DNA from: a candidate division WWE3 bacterium
GTDB lineage: Bacteria; Patescibacteriota; WWE3; UBA101185; UBA10185
Length of the DNA: 64,000 bases
Assembly (NCBI GenBank): GCA_014729135.1
Contig: WJKK01000001.1
Span: 260,588 to 324,587 of the forward strand
Reading direction: 5' to 3'
The number at the start of each line of letters is the position of its first letter. Position 1 is the first letter of the stretch. The position numbers were made by a program, and so were the translations under genes. Of this stretch, positions 14,196 to 63,736 are shown in pieces. Below the pieces are notes generated by a model. The model made no database searches. It saw only the letters and a list, made by a program, of their open reading frames with translations, and was not told the DNA's origin.

Positions 14196-14540
14196 CGTTA
14201 GTTTGAAAATTAATTAAAAGCTTTGACGGAAGGTCATTAGTAGAATATCTTCAGTGACACCAGAGATTGTGCGGTAGCTGAAAGCACAACGTATGAAGTA
14301 GTTTGAATTACCCTTTCTGAGCTTTCCGACTGAAAAACCTTTTTTAGGTAGTAAGTTGGAACGGGCGATCCCGTTATAGATTTTGGAGTGTGTCACGAAT
14401 CGTAAAACGAAGCAACAGAGCACTTCTCAAGACTCTTATGGTGACATAAGGGTGAATTTAAGGTGGTACCGCGGTAATAAAGCCGTCCTTAGACTTTATC
14501 TATTAATTTAGATGAGGTTTGAGGACGGCTTTTTTTGTTG
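14196..14540 (+). promoter_or_regulatory. T-box riboswitch leader (tRNA-sensing transcription attenuator); specifier tentatively UAC (Tyr)
   Basis: T-box sequence aatttaaGGTGGTACCGCGG (14455-14474); F-box-like CCCGTTATA (14370-14378); AGUA S-turn element and AGAGA box in Stem I; terminator aaagccgtcc...ggacggcttt plus T-tract (14479-14537). Confidence 0.65.
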
Positions 14541-16797: not shown

Positions 16798-16883
16798 CCG
16801 GGGATACCAAAGTGGTCAACTGGGGCGGTCTGTAAAACCGCTGGCTTTTGCCTACGCTGGTTCGAATCCAGCTCCCCGGACCA
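16798..16883 (+). tRNA. tRNA-Tyr (anticodon GUA), long variable arm, CCA encoded
   Basis: Acceptor ccgggga/tccccgg; anticodon stem gcggt/accgc with loop CUGUAAA; variable arm tggcttttgcctacgctgg; T-arm gctgg-ttcgaat-ccagc. Confidence 0.8.
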
Positions 16884-37324: not shown

Positions 37325-37400
37325 TGGTGACCCCACGGGGAATTGAACCCCGGTTTTCGGGATGAGAACCCGATGTCCTAGTCCACTAGACGATGGGGCC
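37325..37400 (-). tRNA. tRNA-Glu (anticodon CUC), CCA encoded
   Basis: Reverse complement ggccccatcgtctagtggactaggacatcgggTTCTCATcccgaaaaccggggttcaattccccgtggggtcacca parallels E. coli tRNA-Glu; anticodon loop UUCUCAU. Confidence 0.75.
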
Positions 37401-57129: not shown

Positions 57130-57660
57130 CTATTTTCTTGATCCGTTTTTCTTAGGATTGCCTATTAAGTATTTTGGAGCGTCTTCTGACATGTCGATCA
57201 TTTCTTCGGCTTCTTCCGACAAGTGTTTGGAAGCTGTTTGTCCAAAAGCAATGACCTCTGCTTTAACACCTCTACTCTTAGCATACTTCAAAAGCTCTGT
57301 GTAGTCACCATCTCCGGAGACCAGCACCACTACGTCTATTTTAGGAAGTAGTCGAATTACGTCCATACAGATTCCCACGTCCCAGTCGCCTTTTTTAGCC
57401 CCTCCATAGAAAATTTGAAGTTCTTTTTCTTTAACTTCAAAGCCTATTTTATTTAGCGCTTCGAAAAACTGTTCTTCAGCACCAACATCAGCTTTAATTA
57501 CATAGGCAAAGGCTCTAATTAGCTTCCTTTTTCCTACGGCTGCTTTTAATACTTGGGAAAAATCTACTTTAGCGGAGTAGAGATTTTTTGCGGAGTAGTA
57601 CATGTTTTGCACGTCTACAAAGACGGCTACACGTTGCTCTTTATATTTTGTTGTACTCAT
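57130..57660 (-). CDS. NYN-domain (LabA-like) protein
   Basis: VAVFVDVQNMYY ... VVLVSGDGDY are NYN/LabA PIN-like signatures. Confidence 0.7.
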   Translation of the reverse strand: MSTTKYKEQRVAVFVDVQNMYYSAKNLYSAKVDFSQVLKAAVGKRKLIRAFAYVIKADVGAEEQFFEALNKIGFEVKEKELQIFYGGAKKGDWDVGICMDVIRLLPKIDVVVLVSGDGDYTELLKYAKSRGVKAEVIAFGQTASKHLSEEAEEMIDMSEDAPKYLIGNPKKNGSRK

Positions 57661-57765
57661 TTTTTAAACCTTTCTTGTGAATAATTTTTAAAAGTCAGCC
57701 CCTAATTCACTTTTGTTTATAGGGCTGTTGGGGGTATTTTAACATGTGGGGGAGTTTTTTCTTTT

Positions 57766-58197
57766 TTATTTAAGATACTTAGCGAATATCACATAATCAG
57801 TGTCGCCAAAGTGTCTTGGCAAACTTCCTTCAATTTTGTATCCAAGTTTCTTATAAAATTCCACGGCAGATCTCCAATTTTCTCCGGTTTCAAAATAGAT
57901 TTTATGAACATCATTATTTCCGGATACTTCTTCCACCTTTTCCATTAGCTTTTTTCCAATACTCTTTCTGTAGTGTTTTGGACTCACAATTATTTCATCC
58001 AGATAAGTCACATTTGCCTGAATTGTGAACTCTATATAGCCCACTATTTCATCTTCTTGTACGGCTGTGTACATGAATTTACGTTTTTCCCAGTCAAAAC
58101 TTCTGCCGGGATAGTGTTCTTTATCTGCATGGTCCCAAGCTTCATCAAGGAATTTGTTTAATCTATCTGATTTTTCTTGTATCTTTGTTATTCTCAT
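57766..58197 (-). CDS. GNAT-family N-acetyltransferase
   Basis: acetyl-CoA binding motif YRKSIGKKLMEKV (R/Q-x-x-G-x-G/A); 143 aa. Confidence 0.75.
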   Translation of the reverse strand: MRITKIQEKSDRLNKFLDEAWDHADKEHYPGRSFDWEKRKFMYTAVQEDEIVGYIEFTIQANVTYLDEIIVSPKHYRKSIGKKLMEKVEEVSGNNDVHKIYFETGENWRSAVEFYKKLGYKIEGSLPRHFGDTDYVIFAKYLK

Positions 58198-58227
58198 GGG
58201 GTTAAAAGCTTTGTATGCTTTTGTACT

Positions 58228-58830
58228 TTAGAGCTCAATTTCCCACGCGTGCCTAACTTTTTTGTTTTCATCTGTGTATCTGAAAGCAATTTTAGCAATT
58301 TCGATTTTTTTCGGTGCTTCCTCCACGCATTTTTCAAACGCTTCTTCTGCCTTTTCGGGTTTACACCAAATACACATGTTCATATGATCTCCAACTATGC
58401 TTTCTCCCTTACTCCTTGGGTCAATTTTGTGTATATACTCCACGTATTCCCGTGTTGTAGAAACTCCTAGTTTTTCAAGAATTTCTTCGCAGAATCCGGA
58501 AAAATCTTGCAAATGTTTATCGTGGAATCTAAGTGCTATCCAGTTATGCGCTACGTTTTTTTCATCATTAGCCGATTTATGTACGTTGGTTACATGGTCG
58601 TATGTTACCGGAAACGGTTTTTTCTTTTTCAGGGTGTTTTCAAAGGTTTTTTTGATGGTTTCGATTTGTGTCTCGTCTTTATAAACACCGGAGGCCAGTG
58701 TTATATGAGCATCATTAACGTTGTTGCTTCTAGTATCTCTAAATCCGTTTTTATTGAAGAAGAGTCTGATTTCGTTTAATTTTTCTAAGTTTTCCTTTTT
58801 TGGTAAGGCTACTATGAAGAATCTGTTCAT
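58228..58830 (-). CDS. 2H-phosphoesterase-superfamily protein (LigT-like)
   Basis: HITL H-x-T-x motif near the N-terminus; a second motif was not confidently found. Confidence 0.35.
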   Translation of the reverse strand: MNRFFIVALPKKENLEKLNEIRLFFNKNGFRDTRSNNVNDAHITLASGVYKDETQIETIKKTFENTLKKKKPFPVTYDHVTNVHKSANDEKNVAHNWIALRFHDKHLQDFSGFCEEILEKLGVSTTREYVEYIHKIDPRSKGESIVGDHMNMCIWCKPEKAEEAFEKCVEEAPKKIEIAKIAFRYTDENKKVRHAWEIEL

Positions 58831-58878
58831 GTGAGTATTGTAGCGTGTATTGTTTTGTATTTCCTTTTATTTCCAGGT

Positions 58879-59445
58879 TTATGCAATTAATAATTCCAGC
58901 AATTCGGGGAACTCCTCTGTTCCTAGATTGTCAAAGCAAAAGTGTCCCTTATTCTCAAATTTAGTTACGGGCAAACCATCTACAGCCGAAGTAAGTTTTT
59001 TCACGGATTCGAGAACACTAGGCATATCATCCGCTGAATACAATACGTGAAATTTGTTGGCTTTTGCTACCAAATTCTTATCTACGTCAAAGTCAAAGAA
59101 ATCAGACGTTCTTCTATTTTCCGGATCGAGCCAAGGGGCAACTAGAACTACCTTGTCAACATTAACATCGTTTTCACTCAACCATCTGACTAAAAACCCT
59201 CCCCCGCAGCTATGCCCTACTAGAATTGTTTCCGCTGTTATGTCATGTCTTTCAAACTCTTTTTTCCAATCTTCGTATGTAGGTCCATATGCTTTTGGCA
59301 ATTCGGGTGTCTGCGTAAATATGTCTCTGATCAAAAGCTGCTTTTGCAGCCATGGGAACCAATGACTATTCGATAAAGAGGGATACTCATCACTGTAGTA
59401 CTCTTCTTTATCACAAGAACCATGTAATAGAAGTGCGTTTTTCAT
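58879..59445 (-). CDS. YdeN/RBBP9-family alpha/beta serine hydrolase
   Basis: LLLHGS ... WFPWL ... VGHSCGG nucleophile elbow; 188 aa. Confidence 0.65.
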   Translation of the reverse strand: MKNALLLHGSCDKEEYYSDEYPSLSNSHWFPWLQKQLLIRDIFTQTPELPKAYGPTYEDWKKEFERHDITAETILVGHSCGGGFLVRWLSENDVNVDKVVLVAPWLDPENRRTSDFFDFDVDKNLVAKANKFHVLYSADDMPSVLESVKKLTSAVDGLPVTKFENKGHFCFDNLGTEEFPELLELLIA

Positions 59446-59450
59446 ATCAA

Positions 59451-59969
59451 TTATATTTCCTTTAAAACTTTATACCTTAATTGAACTAATTCGTTATTGA
59501 TCTCCTTGGTTTCCAAAAGTTGGAGTTTTACATCTAAATCTGATTTTCCAAAGAGAGTTAGACCCTGTCCTATAATCAGGGGATGCACACTTAACACAAT
59601 CTCATCTATTAAATCCGCCCTTAAAAATTGCCCATTTGTATTTTCACCGCCAATAATCAGTAGATTTTCAAATCCCTTTTTTCTTGCAAAATTCACAATG
59701 TCGTTTGCACTACCTTCCCTTATCGAGAGATTCTCTGCTTCCTTGTGTAAATCTTCATTTGAAGTTAGGACTATGTTAAAGGAGTTTTCTATGGGGAATT
59801 CATCGGAATCAAACTGTTCCATGGTTTTTCTACCCATTATTACAGCATCGCTTGCCTTTATATAGGAGTAGAATTGATCCCAATCAGTCTCAGATACCCA
59901 ACTACTGTCTTCCTGCCCTCTTGTTATGTAGCCATCTATTGATGTAGCCATGTATAAAGTTATTTTCAT
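59451..59969 (-). CDS. dihydrofolate-reductase-family protein (RibD C-terminal-like)
   Basis: MKITLYMATSIDGYI ... LLIIGG ... resembles the RibD_C/DHFR fold. Confidence 0.65.
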   Translation of the reverse strand: MKITLYMATSIDGYITRGQEDSSWVSETDWDQFYSYIKASDAVIMGRKTMEQFDSDEFPIENSFNIVLTSNEDLHKEAENLSIREGSANDIVNFARKKGFENLLIIGGENTNGQFLRADLIDEIVLSVHPLIIGQGLTLFGKSDLDVKLQLLETKEINNELVQLRYKVLKEI

Positions 59970-60250
59970 GATAATGGAATTATATCAGTTTAGATTTATG
60001 GGAGTTATCCGGTATTATTTGCTTTAGTTAAAGGAGCAGCCCACCATTTGCCTTTGGCAAATGCTCCAGGTAGTTTCAACCCTTTTCAAGTTCTGACGAA
60101 CTTGAAAGGTAGCAAACAAATGTTCGCTTTCGCTCACATTTGCTTGGACCAAACGGGTCGCAAAGCGACACGTTTGGCTGAGCATACGGATCTAGAACTA
60201 TTTTACTCTCCAGGATGCATTTGAGACAAATGAGACAGTATAAAAAGGTA

Positions 60251-60823
60251 TTAGTTTGTTACATTTGGGTAATAACCATTGAATTCTTCAGTGGACAATA
60301 TATTTTGAGCATCCTGTTTAACTTTAATCTTGCTTTTACTATTAATTCTGGATGGTAAGCAATCCTGAAATATCTTTTTTATAGATTCATTTGGAGGTGT
60401 AATAAACCTATAGCCGCTAATTCTTCTCTCAACCCGATTTACAAGATTTCTGTTGTATTTTTTGCTGCCATTTCCAAAAACAAGCACATAACTCTCTCCA
60501 ACCTCAAACATAGGCACTATTGAAAGAAGTTCCTTTTTACCTTTTTTTAGTTCAACTTTCGGACGTTCAAAGCCATCACGTTTTAAAGTTCGGATGTCTG
60601 TTTTAACACCAAGTCCAGTTACTTCCTCAATATTTTTAAACACTTCAACTGCGTTTTCAAAAGCACACTCGTTTACGAATATATCAACGTCCTCGTTATT
60701 TCTATAAAAATGGCCCTGAACCGCTGCAAGTGCTATACCTCCATAAACCCAATATTCTATTCCACTATTTTCTAGTGAGGGCATAACAGTTTCAAAAATT
60801 ACTTTGAGATGTTTGTTGTTCAT
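60251..60823 (-). CDS. nucleotidyltransferase, aminoglycoside 2''-adenylyltransferase (ANT(2'')/LinB-like) family
   Basis: WVYGGIALAAVQG ... EDVDIFV parallels ANT(2'')-Ia WIGGGWAIDA ... DDIDL. Confidence 0.5.
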   Translation of the reverse strand: MNNKHLKVIFETVMPSLENSGIEYWVYGGIALAAVQGHFYRNNEDVDIFVNECAFENAVEVFKNIEEVTGLGVKTDIRTLKRDGFERPKVELKKGKKELLSIVPMFEVGESYVLVFGNGSKKYNRNLVNRVERRISGYRFITPPNESIKKIFQDCLPSRINSKSKIKVKQDAQNILSTEEFNGYYPNVTN

Positions 60824-60829
60824 GTGATT

Positions 60830-61441
60830 TTAGCTTACCTCCACCATAAACATTGCACCATCATAGAAAACATAAACCCAGACATAAATAAACTCTTCAT
60901 CATTATTATAAGCTCTCCAATACCTGAAAACTCCATCTCCAATCTCAGCATATCGGAATTTATTTAGTGTATTATCAATCAGATCTTGAGTCGGTTTCAA
61001 CATGGTTACTTTATATTTTTTGTTTATTGGGTTAATTTCGGGTCTGTGGTGAACTATTAATCCTTTAGTGAGCCTAATCAAAAATTTCTCAGCTCTCTCT
61101 ACAGGAATTGTAATTGCGGAATGTTGTAGTCCCTGTGCATCAGTCAAATTTGTTCTTATTAAGCTTTTTTTAACATTTTCTTTCAGTTTAGGACTCCTTT
61201 TGAATGAAGATCCCATAACCTTATTTTTCCATATCCAAGCGCCTTCAGAAGATCTGTTGATTTGTGCCGTTGTAAAAATTCTAAATGCTTCATCATCAAG
61301 GGATAAAACTTTATGGCAGTCTCCACAACAGCTAACCGTAACTAGGTTATATCTTTTATTTGGTGGAAAAAAACCCTTAGGTGGAATATGATCTCTTGTT
61401 AAATTTTCAGTTGAGCCACAAAGATAACAATTATCTTCCAT
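60830..61441 (-). CDS. HNH endonuclease-domain protein with an uncharacterised C-terminal domain
   Basis: CYLCGSTENLTRDHIPPK ... CCGDCH is a C-x2-C ... DH ... C-x2-C-H HNH zinc-finger nuclease motif. Confidence 0.65.
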   Translation of the reverse strand: MEDNCYLCGSTENLTRDHIPPKGFFPPNKRYNLVTVSCCGDCHKVLSLDDEAFRIFTTAQINRSSEGAWIWKNKVMGSSFKRSPKLKENVKKSLIRTNLTDAQGLQHSAITIPVERAEKFLIRLTKGLIVHHRPEINPINKKYKVTMLKPTQDLIDNTLNKFRYAEIGDGVFRYWRAYNNDEEFIYVWVYVFYDGAMFMVEVS

Positions 61442-62556
61442 TACATTCCTGCTAAAATCTCGTGTAGACCGCGATCTTCAATTTTAAATAATTCGTCACT
61501 AATCCCTGAAATATTTTTATATATAGGTATATCTGCAGTTGAAATATAGTATTTTGGAATATCTTGGTATCCAAGATCACGCAGTTTCTTTAAAACACAT
61601 CCGACAAACATATTTATTGCAATATAAAAATGGGGGTCATTCTTAGTTGTAATATCCTCTGTATCGTTGAATACAAAGTCTGTTGTTGAAACTACATTAC
61701 CATGAATAATTCGATGCCTTAGTTTATAGAATTCTTCAGCCCATATTTCCGGTAAAGATAAGTTAAGATTTCTAATTACAGCTCCTGTCTGCGTGTGAAC
61801 TTCGGGATAAGAGTATTTTTGCTCTGAGCTGGGATCACGTGAAACGTAATTTAAAATATTACTTCTAAAATTTGATCTGCTTGATTCCCCAAATAGTAAC
61901 TCAAAGGCCATTATGAGATTTAGTATTCTTGTATGCATTGGTATTTCAGTAGTATTTTTGTATGTGTAAAAGAAAGGTCCTAGGGAATTGTAAATATTTG
62001 CTTTGTCCAAATTAGTTTCCCGATCTTTGTATAAATCTAAAAGCGCGCTAAGGGTAGGAATATCAAAATTCACAGGTTGGTTTGCTACATGTATGTATTC
62101 TGGTTTTTGAAATTGAATTTCATCCATAGTATATCCACCGGTTGATATACCATGAATTGCACCAGCCTGGGTAGAAATCCCAGTATTTCCTATCTGGAAT
62201 CTCTGGTAATAGCTCAAAAAATTATCGCTGGTTATAAAATTCCATGAATTCATTTTTAATATAGAAGGTATAAGTAGTGCCTGTTTTGTGTATTCAATTT
62301 TATCTATTGTCTTTTTGTAGATATTTGGAAACTCATATCTGTAATTAGTTATAATGGTTGGATTTTCTATGCTTCTACCACTGACGTACGTATATGTTTG
62401 AAGAATTTTTTCAAGATGTGTCTTTAAAGCGGTATCACTTATATTTTTATCCTTATATTTATGAAAAGGCCAAATTCTTAAGTTATCAAACCCAATCTCA
62501 CCATTTAAATATAAGTAAGGTAATATTGTGACTGTATTGTAATTTCTTGTTGGCAT
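61441..62556 (-). CDS. hypothetical protein with a HEPN-like Rx4H motif (Abi-like?)
   Basis: No recognised domain except KLRHRIIHGN near the C-terminus (R-x4-H); ends 1 nt from the HNH gene. Confidence 0.3.
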   Translation of the reverse strand: MPTRNYNTVTILPYLYLNGEIGFDNLRIWPFHKYKDKNISDTALKTHLEKILQTYTYVSGRSIENPTIITNYRYEFPNIYKKTIDKIEYTKQALLIPSILKMNSWNFITSDNFLSYYQRFQIGNTGISTQAGAIHGISTGGYTMDEIQFQKPEYIHVANQPVNFDIPTLSALLDLYKDRETNLDKANIYNSLGPFFYTYKNTTEIPMHTRILNLIMAFELLFGESSRSNFRSNILNYVSRDPSSEQKYSYPEVHTQTGAVIRNLNLSLPEIWAEEFYKLRHRIIHGNVVSTTDFVFNDTEDITTKNDPHFYIAINMFVGCVLKKLRDLGYQDIPKYYISTADIPIYKNISGISDELFKIEDRGLHEILAGM

Positions 62557-62635
62557 ACCAATAAAAAACCCACGCTAAACTAAAGCATGGGCAGTTACTT
62601 TCTGCATCTATTCTAGTAGAAACATCAACGGAGTG

Positions 62636-62914: not shown

Positions 62915-63736
62915 CTAGTCCTGTGTCTTCTTGATACCTGTTGTGAAAAGGTATAGAGGATAAAAGGAGTATTTTGTAAGTTCTGGATATTTTCCTAATA
63001 CCTTATCATCCTTTAGTAAAGGTTCTTCTGTTTTTACTTTATTAAATCCTACTTGCTCAAATATTTGTTTGTACCTTTCAATAGGTCTCATATAATAGGT
63101 TAAAGGTCCTACCGTTTTATTAAGATACACCTCAAACTGCCGTTCTTTAGTAATATCCTTTGTTAATACATACTTAGGTTTGTCTGTATCTAGGTTCTCC
63201 CAATAACCTACATGAAAAGTATTAGGGTTAATACTTGATGTAACAAAAGTTCCTCCTGGTTTTAAGATTCTAAACATTTCTTTTGCGATGGTGCTCAAGT
63301 CCACTACCCAATGAAACATAAGTGAGGAAATTACTAAGTCAAAGCTATTGTTTTCAAAGGGTAGTTCATGACAGTCCGCTGGAATCAGTTCTATAGCGTC
63401 TTTTTCTATGGCAGTTTCCTCTAGCATATTTGGAAGATCCATTCCCACTAAATTACAATTCTTACAAATAAAGCTTAACTTATTCAACATATAACCATCT
63501 CCACACCCTATGTCTAATATCCTTTTGTTAGTTAAGTCTGGCAGTAAAGAAAAGAAGAAAGGGTCATGGTAAAGCTTCTTAGTTAAGTTGATTTCATTTG
63601 CGGAATTAGGATCTATGCTCTTGACATAAATTTGACTAACTTCCTTATCTTCCCAACTTTTTTTACTCATATAACTGAAAGGTAGATTAATATCTATCTC
63701 GAAAGGAATTTTGAATTTTTGACATAAAACCGCCAA
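62915..63736 (-). CDS. class I SAM-dependent methyltransferase (true start possibly Met at 63670)
   Basis: Motif I ILDIGCGDGYM, motif post-I GMDL, motif II/III region; 273 aa. Confidence 0.75.
   Translation of the reverse strand: MAVLCQKFKIPFEIDINLPFSYMSKKSWEDKEVSQIYVKSIDPNSANEINLTKKLYHDPFFFSLLPDLTNKRILDIGCGDGYMLNKLSFICKNCNLVGMDLPNMLEETAIEKDAIELIPADCHELPFENNSFDLVISSLMFHWVVDLSTIAKEMFRILKPGGTFVTSSINPNTFHVGYWENLDTDKPKYVLTKDITKERQFEVYLNKTVGPLTYYMRPIERYKQIFEQVGFNKVKTEEPLLKDDKVLGKYPELTKYSFYPLYLFTTGIKKTQD

What the first reader, a model, noticed from the sequence alone, without database searches (positions are those of the whole stretch)
60251..62556. Candidate defence island: HEPN-motif protein, HNH endonuclease and ANT(2'')-like nucleotidyltransferase in one co-directional block
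Three tightly packed minus-strand genes: an unrecognisable 371-aa protein whose only motif is an R-x4-H (KLRHRIIHGN, HEPN-like), an HNH nuclease with a novel C-terminal domain, and an ANT(2'')-like nucleotidyltransferase. They are flanked by a hairpin-dense non-coding region. A HEPN-like protein with a nucleotidyltransferase echoes HEPN-MNT toxin-antitoxin logic, here with an added DNA nuclease. The 371-aa protein has no identifiable family and may define a new system.
Basis: inference. Interest (0 to 1): 0.6.

Follow-up and report, generated by a model that had tools for sequence, protein, structure and literature searches.

The report
Orphan HEPN RNase beside HNH–nucleotidyltransferase cassette
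The three genes are real, but they are not a conserved three-part system: the 371-aa protein belongs to a large, unnamed family of probable toxic RNases (HEPN type) that here happens to sit next to a separate two-gene nuclease/nucleotidyltransferase cassette.

Summary
All three minus-strand ORFs exist as described, in a candidate division WWE3 (Patescibacteria) genome.

**The three-gene system is not supported.** About 25–30 independent relative contexts lack HNH and NTase homologs. The HNH+NTase pair recurs at 86% nucleotide identity without the 371-aa gene (L036), with the similarity starting at the HNH ribosome-binding site. More distant HNH and NTase homologs are not paired with each other.

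**HepT/MntA logic fails.** There is no Tyr at H+2, and the NTase is Lnu/ANT(2'')-like (GG-X15-DVD, 190 aa).

**Partners in relatives.** The family instead neighbours varied HEPN-motif and nuclease-like genes.

**Best reading.** This is a sensor-plus-HEPN abortive-infection-type RNase, working like ApeA, placed next to an independent cassette. Interest is moderate.

The parts
61441..62556 (-). 371-aa protein: N-terminal alpha/beta domain of unassigned fold plus C-terminal HEPN domain (predicted RNase)
   Evidence: ORF. 100% identical to GF360_01595, candidate division WWE3. AF2 model pLDDT 88, pTM 0.88. The family has 735 clusters at E<=1e-3.
62032..62556 (-). N-terminal alpha/beta domain (residues ~1-175), putative sensor or regulatory domain
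61567..62010 (-). HEPN-like helical domain (residues ~183-330) with a beta-hairpin insertion at 247-267
61702..61719 (-). R280-H-R-I-I-H285, the R-x4-H catalytic dyad of the HEPN domain
   Evidence: Translation is RHRIIH. R and H are present in 122/122 members. Family consensus is W-A-x-x-F-Y-x-L-R-[N/S/H/D]-x-I-[IV]-H-G.
60830..61441 (-). 203-aa HNH_5-type endonuclease-like protein with a conserved C-terminal domain of unknown fold
   Evidence: Invariant C5, C8, D17, H18, C39, C42 and near-invariant N32 across 25 homologs. Pfam HNH_5 E 0.002. 74 homologs, many with precomputed PF14279. The motif is encoded at 61313-61429.
60251..60823 (-). 190-aa Pol-beta-fold nucleotidyltransferase of the ANT(2'')/Lnu type
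   Evidence: Pfam Aminoglyc_resit 24 bits, above GA 21. NCBIfam Lnu models match weakly. Invariant G28 G29 ... D45-V-D47. The closest solved relative is Lnu(A) 4fo1/4wh5, E 2e-4.
60174..61452 (-). HNH+NTase cassette as delimited by nucleotide similarity to L036
   Evidence: 86% identity over 1281 nt, from 12 nt upstream of the HNH ATG to 77 nt past the NTase stop. There is no similarity beyond these points.
60174..60252 (-). Conserved ~75-nt DNA element at the 3' end of the cassette; core TGTCTCATTTGTCT at 60224-60237
   Evidence: The core is exact or near-exact in L036, L037/38, L043 and L049/50, always in gene-sense orientation. One copy in the window against 0.03 expected.
60045..60177 (-). 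Four-hairpin structured spacer
   Evidence: Inverted repeats I1-I4. MFE -84.2 kcal/mol, z = -5.26 for 59975-60250. No Rfam match at E<=5.
62568..62592 (-). Intrinsic-terminator-like hairpin 12 nt upstream of the 371-aa start codon
   Evidence: 9-bp stem with 5 GC pairs followed by a T-run. It separates the block from orf76 and the methyltransferase upstream.

Best explanation
**The 371-aa gene.** It encodes a two-domain protein of a large, unnamed HEPN family. An N-terminal alpha/beta domain of unassigned fold is joined to a C-terminal, insertion-bearing HEPN domain. The invariant R280-x4-H285 dyad of that domain is the catalytic centre.

**Inferred mechanism.** This rests on established HEPN biology and on the single-protein systems ApeA and DARNA, and is not shown here. 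The protein dimerises through its HEPN domain to form a composite metal-independent RNase site. The N-terminal domain and a flexible Gly-rich loop hold it inactive. A phage- or stress-derived trigger then releases it to cut cellular RNA, most likely tRNA anticodon loops or mRNA, which arrests growth (abortive infection or toxin behaviour).

**The other two genes.** HNH (203 aa) and the Lnu/ANT(2'')-like nucleotidyltransferase (190 aa) form a separate ~1.28-kb cassette. In this genome the cassette is joined to the 3' end of the HEPN gene. The adjacency is a lineage-specific juxtaposition in a low-GC variable region, not a conserved three-component system.

**Shown here:** family membership, invariance of the dyad, a HEPN-like fold, the independence of the cassette, and the variable conflict-type neighbourhoods.

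**Inferred:** RNase activity, its target, its trigger, and a defence role.
For: - **Dyad.** R280 and H285 are the only invariant columns in 122 members down to 18% identity. N is the commonest residue after R (95/122), as is typical of HEPN.
- **Family links.** 10/122 members hit Pfam HEPN_Apea (best E 2e-5) and 5/122 hit PADLOC DzbB. The weak individual hits cover the R-x4-H helix.
- **Size and architecture.** The family has 735 clusters with a uniform 340-400 aa architecture.
- **Neighbourhoods.** They vary and are rich in conflict genes:
  - an R-M pair and T4SS genes;
  - Pfam HEPN (c34) and Mrr/NOV_C-like (c26) genes;
  - a PD-(D/E)xK-like family recurring in two distant clades;
  - SRA-HNH, serine recombinases, Fic and NYN near distant members.
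- **Cassette independence.**
- **Composition.** GC drops to 0.33 from 61 kb onward, against ~0.40 elsewhere.
- **Mechanistic precedent.** ApeA is a single protein with a ligand pocket between its HEPN and N-terminal domains, and it cleaves tRNA anticodon loops. DARNA is a second example.
Against: - The window protein itself hits no HEPN model. The link to HEPN_Apea is transitive, and every individual hit is below Pfam's gathering score.
- No activity, toxicity or phage data exist.
- No family member was found in IMG/VR, phage or plasmid collections. A defence role therefore rests on context alone.
- The TAATG overlap and the absence of a terminator inside the block suggest that the three genes are co-transcribed here. 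A lineage-specific functional link therefore cannot be excluded.
- Many relatives have a conserved upstream partner (c1 or c14) that the window lacks. The family may therefore not always act alone.
Confidence: 0.62

Rival explanations
1. The three genes form one functional system in which the HEPN protein, the HNH DNase and the nucleotidyltransferase act together, for example with the NTase regulating or signalling to the two nucleases.
For: - The genes are packed like an operon: TAATG overlap, a 6-nt gap, a terminator only upstream of the block.
- All three are nucleic-acid or nucleotide enzymes.
- The region is low in GC.
- In relatives the family often sits beside other nuclease-like genes: Mrr-like c26, PD-(D/E)xK-like c29 and L043, and HEPN c34. 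A HEPN gene plus a swappable nuclease is therefore a recurring pattern.
Against: - None of about 25-30 independent relative contexts has an HNH203 or NT190 homolog within ~8 kb.
- The cassette occurs at 86% nt identity without the HEPN gene, and the breakpoint lies at the HNH RBS.
- HNH homologs (L037-39, L044-45) and NTase homologs (L040, L041, L049) are not paired with each other or with the family.
- PADLOC finds no system.
Confidence: 0.1
2. A HEPN-MNT (HepT/MntA, type VII) toxin-antitoxin variant. The nucleotidyltransferase AMPylates the HEPN protein to keep it inactive.
For: A HEPN-motif protein and an apparently active Pol-beta-type NTase (G28-G29 ... D45-x-D47) lie in one co-directional block.
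Against: Defining features are taken from PMC7641770.
- The toxin should carry RX4HXY. Here H+2 is N, and Tyr occurs in 1/122 members.
- The toxin should be DUF86 or PF08780. There is no such hit.
- The antitoxin should be PF01909 with GSX10DXD and under 150 aa. Here it is Aminoglyc_resit/Lnu-like, GG-X15-DVD and 190 aa.
- The antitoxin should lie immediately upstream. Here it is downstream and separated by the HNH gene.
- No family relative has an NTase neighbour.
Confidence: 0.04
3. A lineage-specific housekeeping RNA-processing enzyme of Patescibacteria with no conflict role. The variable neighbourhoods would simply reflect poor synteny in these genomes.
For: - Full-length conservation at 35-58% identity across Microgenomates, Roizmanbacteria, Shapirobacteria and WWE3.
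- In one clade it sits next to ruvC and ruvA.
- Some HEPN proteins, such as Las1, are RNA-processing enzymes.
Against: - The distribution is patchy. The close subfamily was found in only 7 species-representative genomes, although by a pattern-based scan.
- Relatives occur outside the CPR, for example in Gemmatimonadales.
- Neighbours include R-M genes, other HEPN genes, recombinases and T4SS genes.
- There is no conserved housekeeping operon.
Confidence: 0.12

Closest known systems
ApeA (single-protein HEPN anti-phage system; Pfam HEPN_Apea PF18739)
   Same: - A single polypeptide with a non-catalytic N-terminal region and a C-terminal split HEPN domain carrying insertions.
- The R-x4-H lies on the third core helix.
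- 10/122 family members reach HEPN_Apea.
- ApeA's closest structural homolog is also a minimal HepT-type HEPN, as is the case for this model.
   Different: - ApeA is about 580 aa with largely helical N-terminal and Mid domains. This family is about 370 aa with a single ~175-aa alpha/beta N-domain.
- No member hits ApeA_NTD1, and the window protein hits no PADLOC model at all.
- All HEPN_Apea hits are below the gathering score.
- Oligomeric state, ligand and target are unknown here.
Dazbog DzbB (second gene of the DzbA/DzbB anti-phage system)
   Same: 5/122 family members give weak matches to PADLOC DzbB, best E 4e-4.
   Different: - Dazbog needs DzbA, a DUF262 protein. No DUF262 gene is seen next to the window gene or in the relatives examined.
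- The window protein itself does not match DzbB.
HepT/MntA (HEPN/MNT) type VII toxin-antitoxin
   Different: - There is no RX4HXY tyrosine.
- The toxin is not DUF86, and the NTase is not PF01909 and lacks GSX10DXD.
- Order and spacing are wrong, and the pairing is not conserved.
Lnu / ANT(2'')-Ia nucleotidyltransferases (for the 190-aa protein)
   Same: - It matches Pfam Aminoglyc_resit above threshold.
- It has the catalytic GG...DxD.
- Its nearest solved relatives are Lnu(A) and ANT(2'')-Ia.
   Different: - Only the N-terminal ~70 residues align.
- NCBIfam Lnu scores are 14-25 bits against cut-offs of 300 or more, so it is not a resistance-gene ortholog.
- The substrate is unknown.
HNH_5 (PF14279) endonucleases (for the 203-aa protein)
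   Same: The CxxC...DH...N...CxxC[H/N] beta-beta-alpha-Me signature is conserved. Many homologs carry PF14279.
   Different: - The ~150-aa conserved C-terminal domain has no family or PDB match.

Membership tests
HEPN superfamily | Conserved R-x4-6-H motif, usually with a polar residue (N/D/H) after R | tested here: met
   R280 and H285 are present in 122/122 members. The residue after R is N 95, S 17, H 4, D 4.
HEPN superfamily | Alpha-helical bundle fold with the motif on a core helix | tested here: met
HEPN superfamily | Metal-independent RNase activity from a dimeric composite site | not testable with these tools
   This needs biochemistry or a multimer model.
Apea-like HEPN (PF18739) / ApeA system | Match to the HEPN_Apea model above the gathering score (24.4 bits) | tested here: not met
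   The window protein has no hit. 10/122 relatives hit at E<=0.01, best 2e-5. The two individual hits seen scored 13-15 bits.
Apea-like HEPN (PF18739) / ApeA system | ApeA-type N-terminal region (ApeA_NTD1; ~300 aa preceding the HEPN domain) | tested here: not met
Apea-like HEPN (PF18739) / ApeA system | Recognised by the ApeA model of a defence-system database | tested here: not met
   PADLOC gives no hit for the window protein at E<=1. Among 122 relatives the only PADLOC family is DzbB.
HepT/MntA (HEPN/MNT) toxin-antitoxin | Toxin with an RX4HXY motif in DUF86 (PF01934) or PF08780 | tested here: not met
   H+2 is N in the window and Tyr in 1/122 members. There is no DUF86 hit. The criterion comes from PMC7641770.
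HepT/MntA (HEPN/MNT) toxin-antitoxin | Adjacent upstream MNT antitoxin: PF01909, GSX10DXD, under 150 aa | tested here: not met
   The NTase is PF10706-type, GG-X15-DVD and 190 aa. It lies downstream and is separated by the HNH gene.
Dazbog (DzbA/DzbB) | Two-gene operon with a DUF262 DzbA | tested here: not met
   No DUF262 among the neighbours in the window or in the relatives examined.
Conserved three-gene HEPN+HNH+NTase system (as proposed) | Co-localisation of the three families in relatives | tested here: not met
   None of about 25-30 independent contexts has it. The cassette occurs alone in L036. HNH and NTase homologs are unpaired elsewhere.
ANT(2'')/Lnu nucleotidyltransferase family (PF10706) | Pfam gathering score and the catalytic G[GS]...DxD | tested here: met
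   24 bits against GA 21. G28, G29, D45 and D47 are invariant.
ANT(2'')/Lnu nucleotidyltransferase family (PF10706) | Orthology to a named resistance enzyme (NCBIfam cut-offs) | tested here: not met
   The best score is 24.6 bits against a cut-off of 300.

The most novel reading that the evidence does not exclude
The 371-aa family is the constant module of a previously undescribed modular conflict system. In it, a sensor-HEPN protein works with interchangeable nuclease-type partners: the c1 and c14 HEPN-motif proteins, Mrr-like, PD-(D/E)xK-like, a Pfam HEPN protein, and here HNH plus an Lnu-like NTase. In addition, the strongly conserved TGTCTCATTTGTCT-containing element at the 3' end of these cargo genes would be the recombination site of a cassette-exchange mechanism in Patescibacteria.
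Probability: 0.1. Interest if true: 0.7.

Novelty: new variant of a known kind. Interest (0 to 1): 0.38.

Why it matters
- **New HEPN variant.** If the prediction holds, this family (735 clusters at 50% identity, absent from Pfam, PADLOC and NCBIfam) adds a compact sensor-HEPN architecture to the single-protein abortive-infection RNases exemplified by ApeA and DARNA. Its N-terminal domain has no known fold.
- **Patescibacteria.** Few known defence systems are detected in these small-genome, episymbiotic bacteria, so their conflict systems are poorly charted. A widespread orphan HEPN family would help fill that gap.
- **New trigger.** The novel N-domain could recognise a new kind of infection signal.
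- **Method.** Tight operon-like packing in one genome did not predict a conserved system here.

Tried and rejected
**Searches that returned nothing useful**
- Foldseek of the full model against the PDB: nothing significant.
- The AFDB50 library was not available.
- Profile searches of PDB sequences with A1 and A4: no hits.
- IMG/VR scans for the 371-aa and HNH families and for the DNA element: nothing.
- tblastn against annotated phages and plasmids: nothing.
- Rfam on the structured spacer at E<=5: nothing.

**Ideas tested and dropped**
- c1, the conserved upstream partner in relatives, as a paralog of the HEPN half. hhalign probability is 0.35%, so I rejected this.
- RibD_C as a syntenic anchor downstream of the family gene. 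The evidence is a single 23%-identity coincidence from one genome.
- A consensus RNA structure for the conserved 75-nt element. Three sequences give no compensatory changes, so the result is inconclusive.
- A second copy of the element bounding the other side of the cassettes. None was found.
- orf76 and the methyltransferase upstream as conserved partners. Apart from a weak generic MTase-domain match (25% over 88 aa) in the L001-group contig, they have no homologs in relative loci. The PADLOC mad2 hit is a generic MTase-domain match.
Full report
**1.

The window carries three tightly packed minus-strand ORFs:
- 61441-62556, 371 aa
- 60830-61441, 203 aa
- 60251-60823, 190 aa

All three are 100% identical to hypothetical proteins GF360_01595, GF360_01590 and GF360_01585 of a candidate division WWE3 bacterium (Patescibacteria) on an 864-kb contig.

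The stop of the first gene overlaps the start of the second (TAATG). Six nucleotides separate the second from the third. A strong terminator-like hairpin lies 12 nt upstream of the 371-aa start codon. GC content falls to about 0.33 from 61 kb onward, against about 0.40 elsewhere.

The downstream spacer (59970-60250) is hairpin-dense. It contains four inverted repeats and has a folding z-score of -5.3.

**2. What the 371-aa protein is**

The protein itself matches nothing in Pfam, NCBIfam or PADLOC, and PHROGs gives only a non-significant E 0.07 match. It is not an orphan, however.
- A word-indexed search found about 50 full-length homologs, all from Patescibacteria or Microgenomates.
- An exhaustive profile search found 735 cluster representatives at E<=1e-3 and 360 at E<=1e-10. 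Nearly all are 340-400 aa and match end to end.
- At least one comes from outside the CPR, in Gemmatimonadales.

Within the close subfamily, IWAEEFYKLR[H/N]xIIH is invariant. In an alignment of 122 diverse members (down to 18% identity) the only invariant columns are R280 and H285. The consensus is W-A-x-x-F-Y-x-L-R-N-x-I-[IV]-H-G. This is the HEPN R-x4-H dyad with the usual polar residue after the Arg.

The AlphaFold2 model built from the family alignment is confident (pLDDT 88, pTM 0.88).
- Residues ~1-175 form an alpha/beta domain.
- The remainder is a helical domain with a beta-hairpin insertion. The dyad lies at the end of helix 268-285.

Structure searches gave the following.
- Foldseek against the PDB found nothing.

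Scanning all 122 members individually gave two transitive links. Ten reach Pfam HEPN_Apea (best E 2e-5) and five reach PADLOC DzbB (best E 4e-4). The weak individual hits I could inspect cover window residues 224-308, which is the dyad helix. None hits ApeA_NTD1.

I conclude that this is a HEPN-domain protein of an undescribed family, distantly allied to the Apea-like branch, with a new N-terminal domain.

**3. Is it a three-gene system? No.**

I collected 35 loci encoding relatives of the 371-aa protein from genome and metagenome collections. I added the two closest relatives and two distant ones. After removing duplicate contigs these represent about 25-30 independent contexts.

- tblastn with the HNH and NTase proteins found no homolog in any of these loci.
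- A Logan contig, L036, carries the HNH and NTase genes at 85% protein identity with no 371-aa gene. They are preceded there by a secreted 230-aa protein and a serine-recombinase fragment.
- At nucleotide level the similarity (86% over 1281 nt) begins 12 nt upstream of the HNH ATG, at the conserved GCAGGA ribosome-binding region that in the window also encodes the last four codons of the 371-aa protein. It ends 77 nt after the NTase stop.
- HNH+NTase is therefore a discrete ~1.28-kb cassette in two unrelated contexts.
- At greater distance the pair dissolves. HNH homologs at ~50% identity sit in a prophage-like region or next to a transposase, without the NTase. NTase homologs at 37-50% identity sit next to a relaxase, a DUF4258 toxin pair or membrane proteins, without the HNH.

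**4. The HEPN-MNT analogy fails on explicit criteria**

Yao et al. (PMC7641770) define HepT/MntA by two components. The toxin is DUF86 or PF08780 with an RX4HXY motif. The antitoxin is an adjacent upstream PF01909 protein of under 150 aa with GSX10DXD.

- The residue at H+2 is N in the window. It is Tyr in only 1/122 family members.
- The NTase is a PF10706 (ANT(2'')/Lnu-type) enzyme of 190 aa with GG-X15-DVD.
- Its closest solved relatives are Lnu(A) and ANT(2'')-Ia, which modify small molecules.
- It lies downstream of the HEPN gene and is separated from it by the HNH gene.

**5. What the family does associate with**

De novo clustering of neighbours shows the following.
- **c1.** A ~232-aa protein lies immediately upstream in seven independent contexts of the main Microgenomates clade, often with a 4-nt overlap. 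It has its own invariant K-R-N-x-x-L-H-R-P-F motif. It is not detectably homologous to the family.
- **c14.** A 128-aa protein with LRNKETH lies upstream in another clade.
- **Variable downstream genes.**
  - A bona fide Pfam HEPN protein (c34) in three contexts and an Mrr/NOV_C-like protein (c26) in three contexts.
  - Rx4H-bearing proteins (c61 and the L019 302-aa protein) and methyltransferases.
- **PD-(D/E)xK-like family.** A 295-303-aa family with a "HPD.LV...ECKR" motif recurs in two distant clades (c29 and the L043 protein; E 2e-20). The nuclease label rests on the motif and is an inference.
- **Wider contexts.** These include an MvaI/BcnI R-M pair and T4SS genes, SRA-HNH, and serine recombinases, Fic and NYN.

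The window has neither c1 nor c14. PADLOC recognises no known system in or around the block. It reports only generic MTase and NYN domain matches.

The pattern fits a conflict or defence gene living in variable neighbourhoods. It does not show that any neighbour is a functional partner.

**6. Mechanism (inferred)**

The inference rests on general HEPN biology and on two recent single-protein systems. ApeA has a ligand pocket between its HEPN and N-terminal domains and cleaves tRNA anticodon loops. DARNA is a tRNase activated by ssDNA.

I propose four steps:
1. The protein dimerises through its HEPN domain to form a composite R-x4-H RNase site.
2. The N-terminal domain holds the enzyme off. The flexible, conserved Gly-rich loop (131-140, low pLDDT, near-invariant G132) may also contribute.
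3. An infection- or stress-derived cue is sensed.
4. Cellular RNA is cleaved and growth arrests.

The terminator immediately upstream of the start codon suggests expression by read-through only, which would suit a toxic product. This last point is speculative.

The HNH protein keeps its full catalytic and zinc-binding signature, and the NTase keeps its catalytic residues. Both are therefore probably active. Their function as a pair, seen in only two genomes, is unknown.

**7. Comparison with known systems, and novelty**

It works like ApeA-type single-protein HEPN effectors, but it is not a member.
- It falls below the HEPN_Apea threshold.
- It lacks ApeA's N-terminal and Mid domains and is about 200 aa shorter.
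- No PADLOC model detects it.

It is not Dazbog, because no DUF262 partner is present. It is not HepT/MntA.

I rate it a new variant of a known kind. It is a large, unannotated HEPN family with a novel N-domain, and it is prominent in Patescibacteria. The proposed three-gene system is not a real unit.

**8. An unexplained extra**

The ~75 nt following the NTase stop contain the core TGTCTCATTTGTCT (60224-60237). This core recurs exactly or nearly so, always in the gene-sense orientation, at four other independent sites:
- after the cassette in L036;
- after the PD-(D/E)xK-like gene that follows the closest relative of the 371-aa gene (L043);
- after a 50%-identity NTase homolog (L049/L050);
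- as a perfect 25-mer beside a serine recombinase gene in the prophage-like L037/L038 region.

It occurs once in the 64-kb window, against 0.03 expected by chance. It is much better conserved than the adjacent proteins. I found no second bounding copy, no covariation and no Rfam match.

It could be a recombination site, a conserved promoter or operator, or the 5' end of an ncRNA.

**9. Verdict**

The HEPN assignment and the conflict flavour hold. The three-gene system and the HEPN-MNT logic do not.
- Confidence that the protein is a HEPN-fold enzyme with a functional R-x4-H site is about 0.85.
- Confidence in the full best explanation, including an Abi or toxin role and cassette independence, is about 0.6.
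- Interest is 0.38.

Noticed in passing
window 60174-60252 (-), core 60224-60237; also L036 3130-3204, L043 4421-4490, L037 7472-7496, L049 3064-3090: A conserved DNA element with core TGTCTCAT(T/A)TGTCT lies directly 3' of cargo genes in five independent loci. It includes a perfect 25-mer shared with a prophage-like region next to a serine recombinase. It is far better conserved than the flanking proteins. It may be a recombination site, an operator or the 5' end of an ncRNA.
   Followed up: partly
window 60045-60177 (within spacer 59970-60250): Four consecutive hairpins give a 276-nt spacer with MFE -84 kcal/mol, z = -5.3 on the gene strand and -4.05 on the other strand. There is no Rfam match at E<=5. 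This may be an unannotated small RNA or a multi-hairpin terminator or insulator.
   Followed up: partly
L001 5300-6004, L003 5295-5993, L005 7288-7995, L007 7294-7998, L009 7304-7999, L013, L019 2124-2816: A ~232-aa protein family (c1) is translationally coupled upstream of the 371-aa family in seven independent Microgenomates contexts. It has an invariant K-R-N-x-x-L-H-R-P-F motif (HEPN-like R-N-x3-H) and no Pfam or PADLOC match. Together with the 371-aa family it is a candidate conserved two-gene system. The window lacks it.
   Followed up: partly
L043 3502-4413; L023 1998-2885 (-), L025, L029: A 295-303-aa family with a 'HPD.LV...Y.[VI]ECKR' (PD-(D/E)xK-like) motif neighbours the 371-aa family in two distant clades (BLASTP E 2e-20 between them). 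It has no family annotation.
   Followed up: partly
L037 1-10612 (GCA_964394645.1 contig, 550 kb): An HNH203 homolog lies in a prophage-like region between a terminase / ParB-methyltransferase module and a large serine recombinase plus an Eco57I-like gene. It is flanked by three unannotated genes of 319, 190 and 305 aa.
   Followed up: no
window 14214-14493 (+): A T-box leader (Rfam RF00230, 108.5 bits) is present. tRNA-Tyr lies at 16798-16883 and tRNA-Glu at 37325-37400. These are ordinary features unrelated to the finding.
   Followed up: no
window 57130-59969 (-): A run of small enzyme genes lies downstream of the block: RibD_C/DHFR-like, Ser_hydrolase, a weak LigT/2'-5' RNA ligase-like gene, GNAT and an NYN-domain gene. 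The NYN gene matches PADLOC's generic NYN model (E 3e-12). No system is recognised.
   Followed up: partly
window 62915-63736 (-): A class I SAM methyltransferase (Methyltransf_11) lies upstream of the block. It gives a domain-level match to PADLOC mad2 (E 5e-16, positions 285-423 of a 492-position model). This is probably generic MTase similarity. It is not conserved next to relatives of the 371-aa gene.
   Followed up: partly
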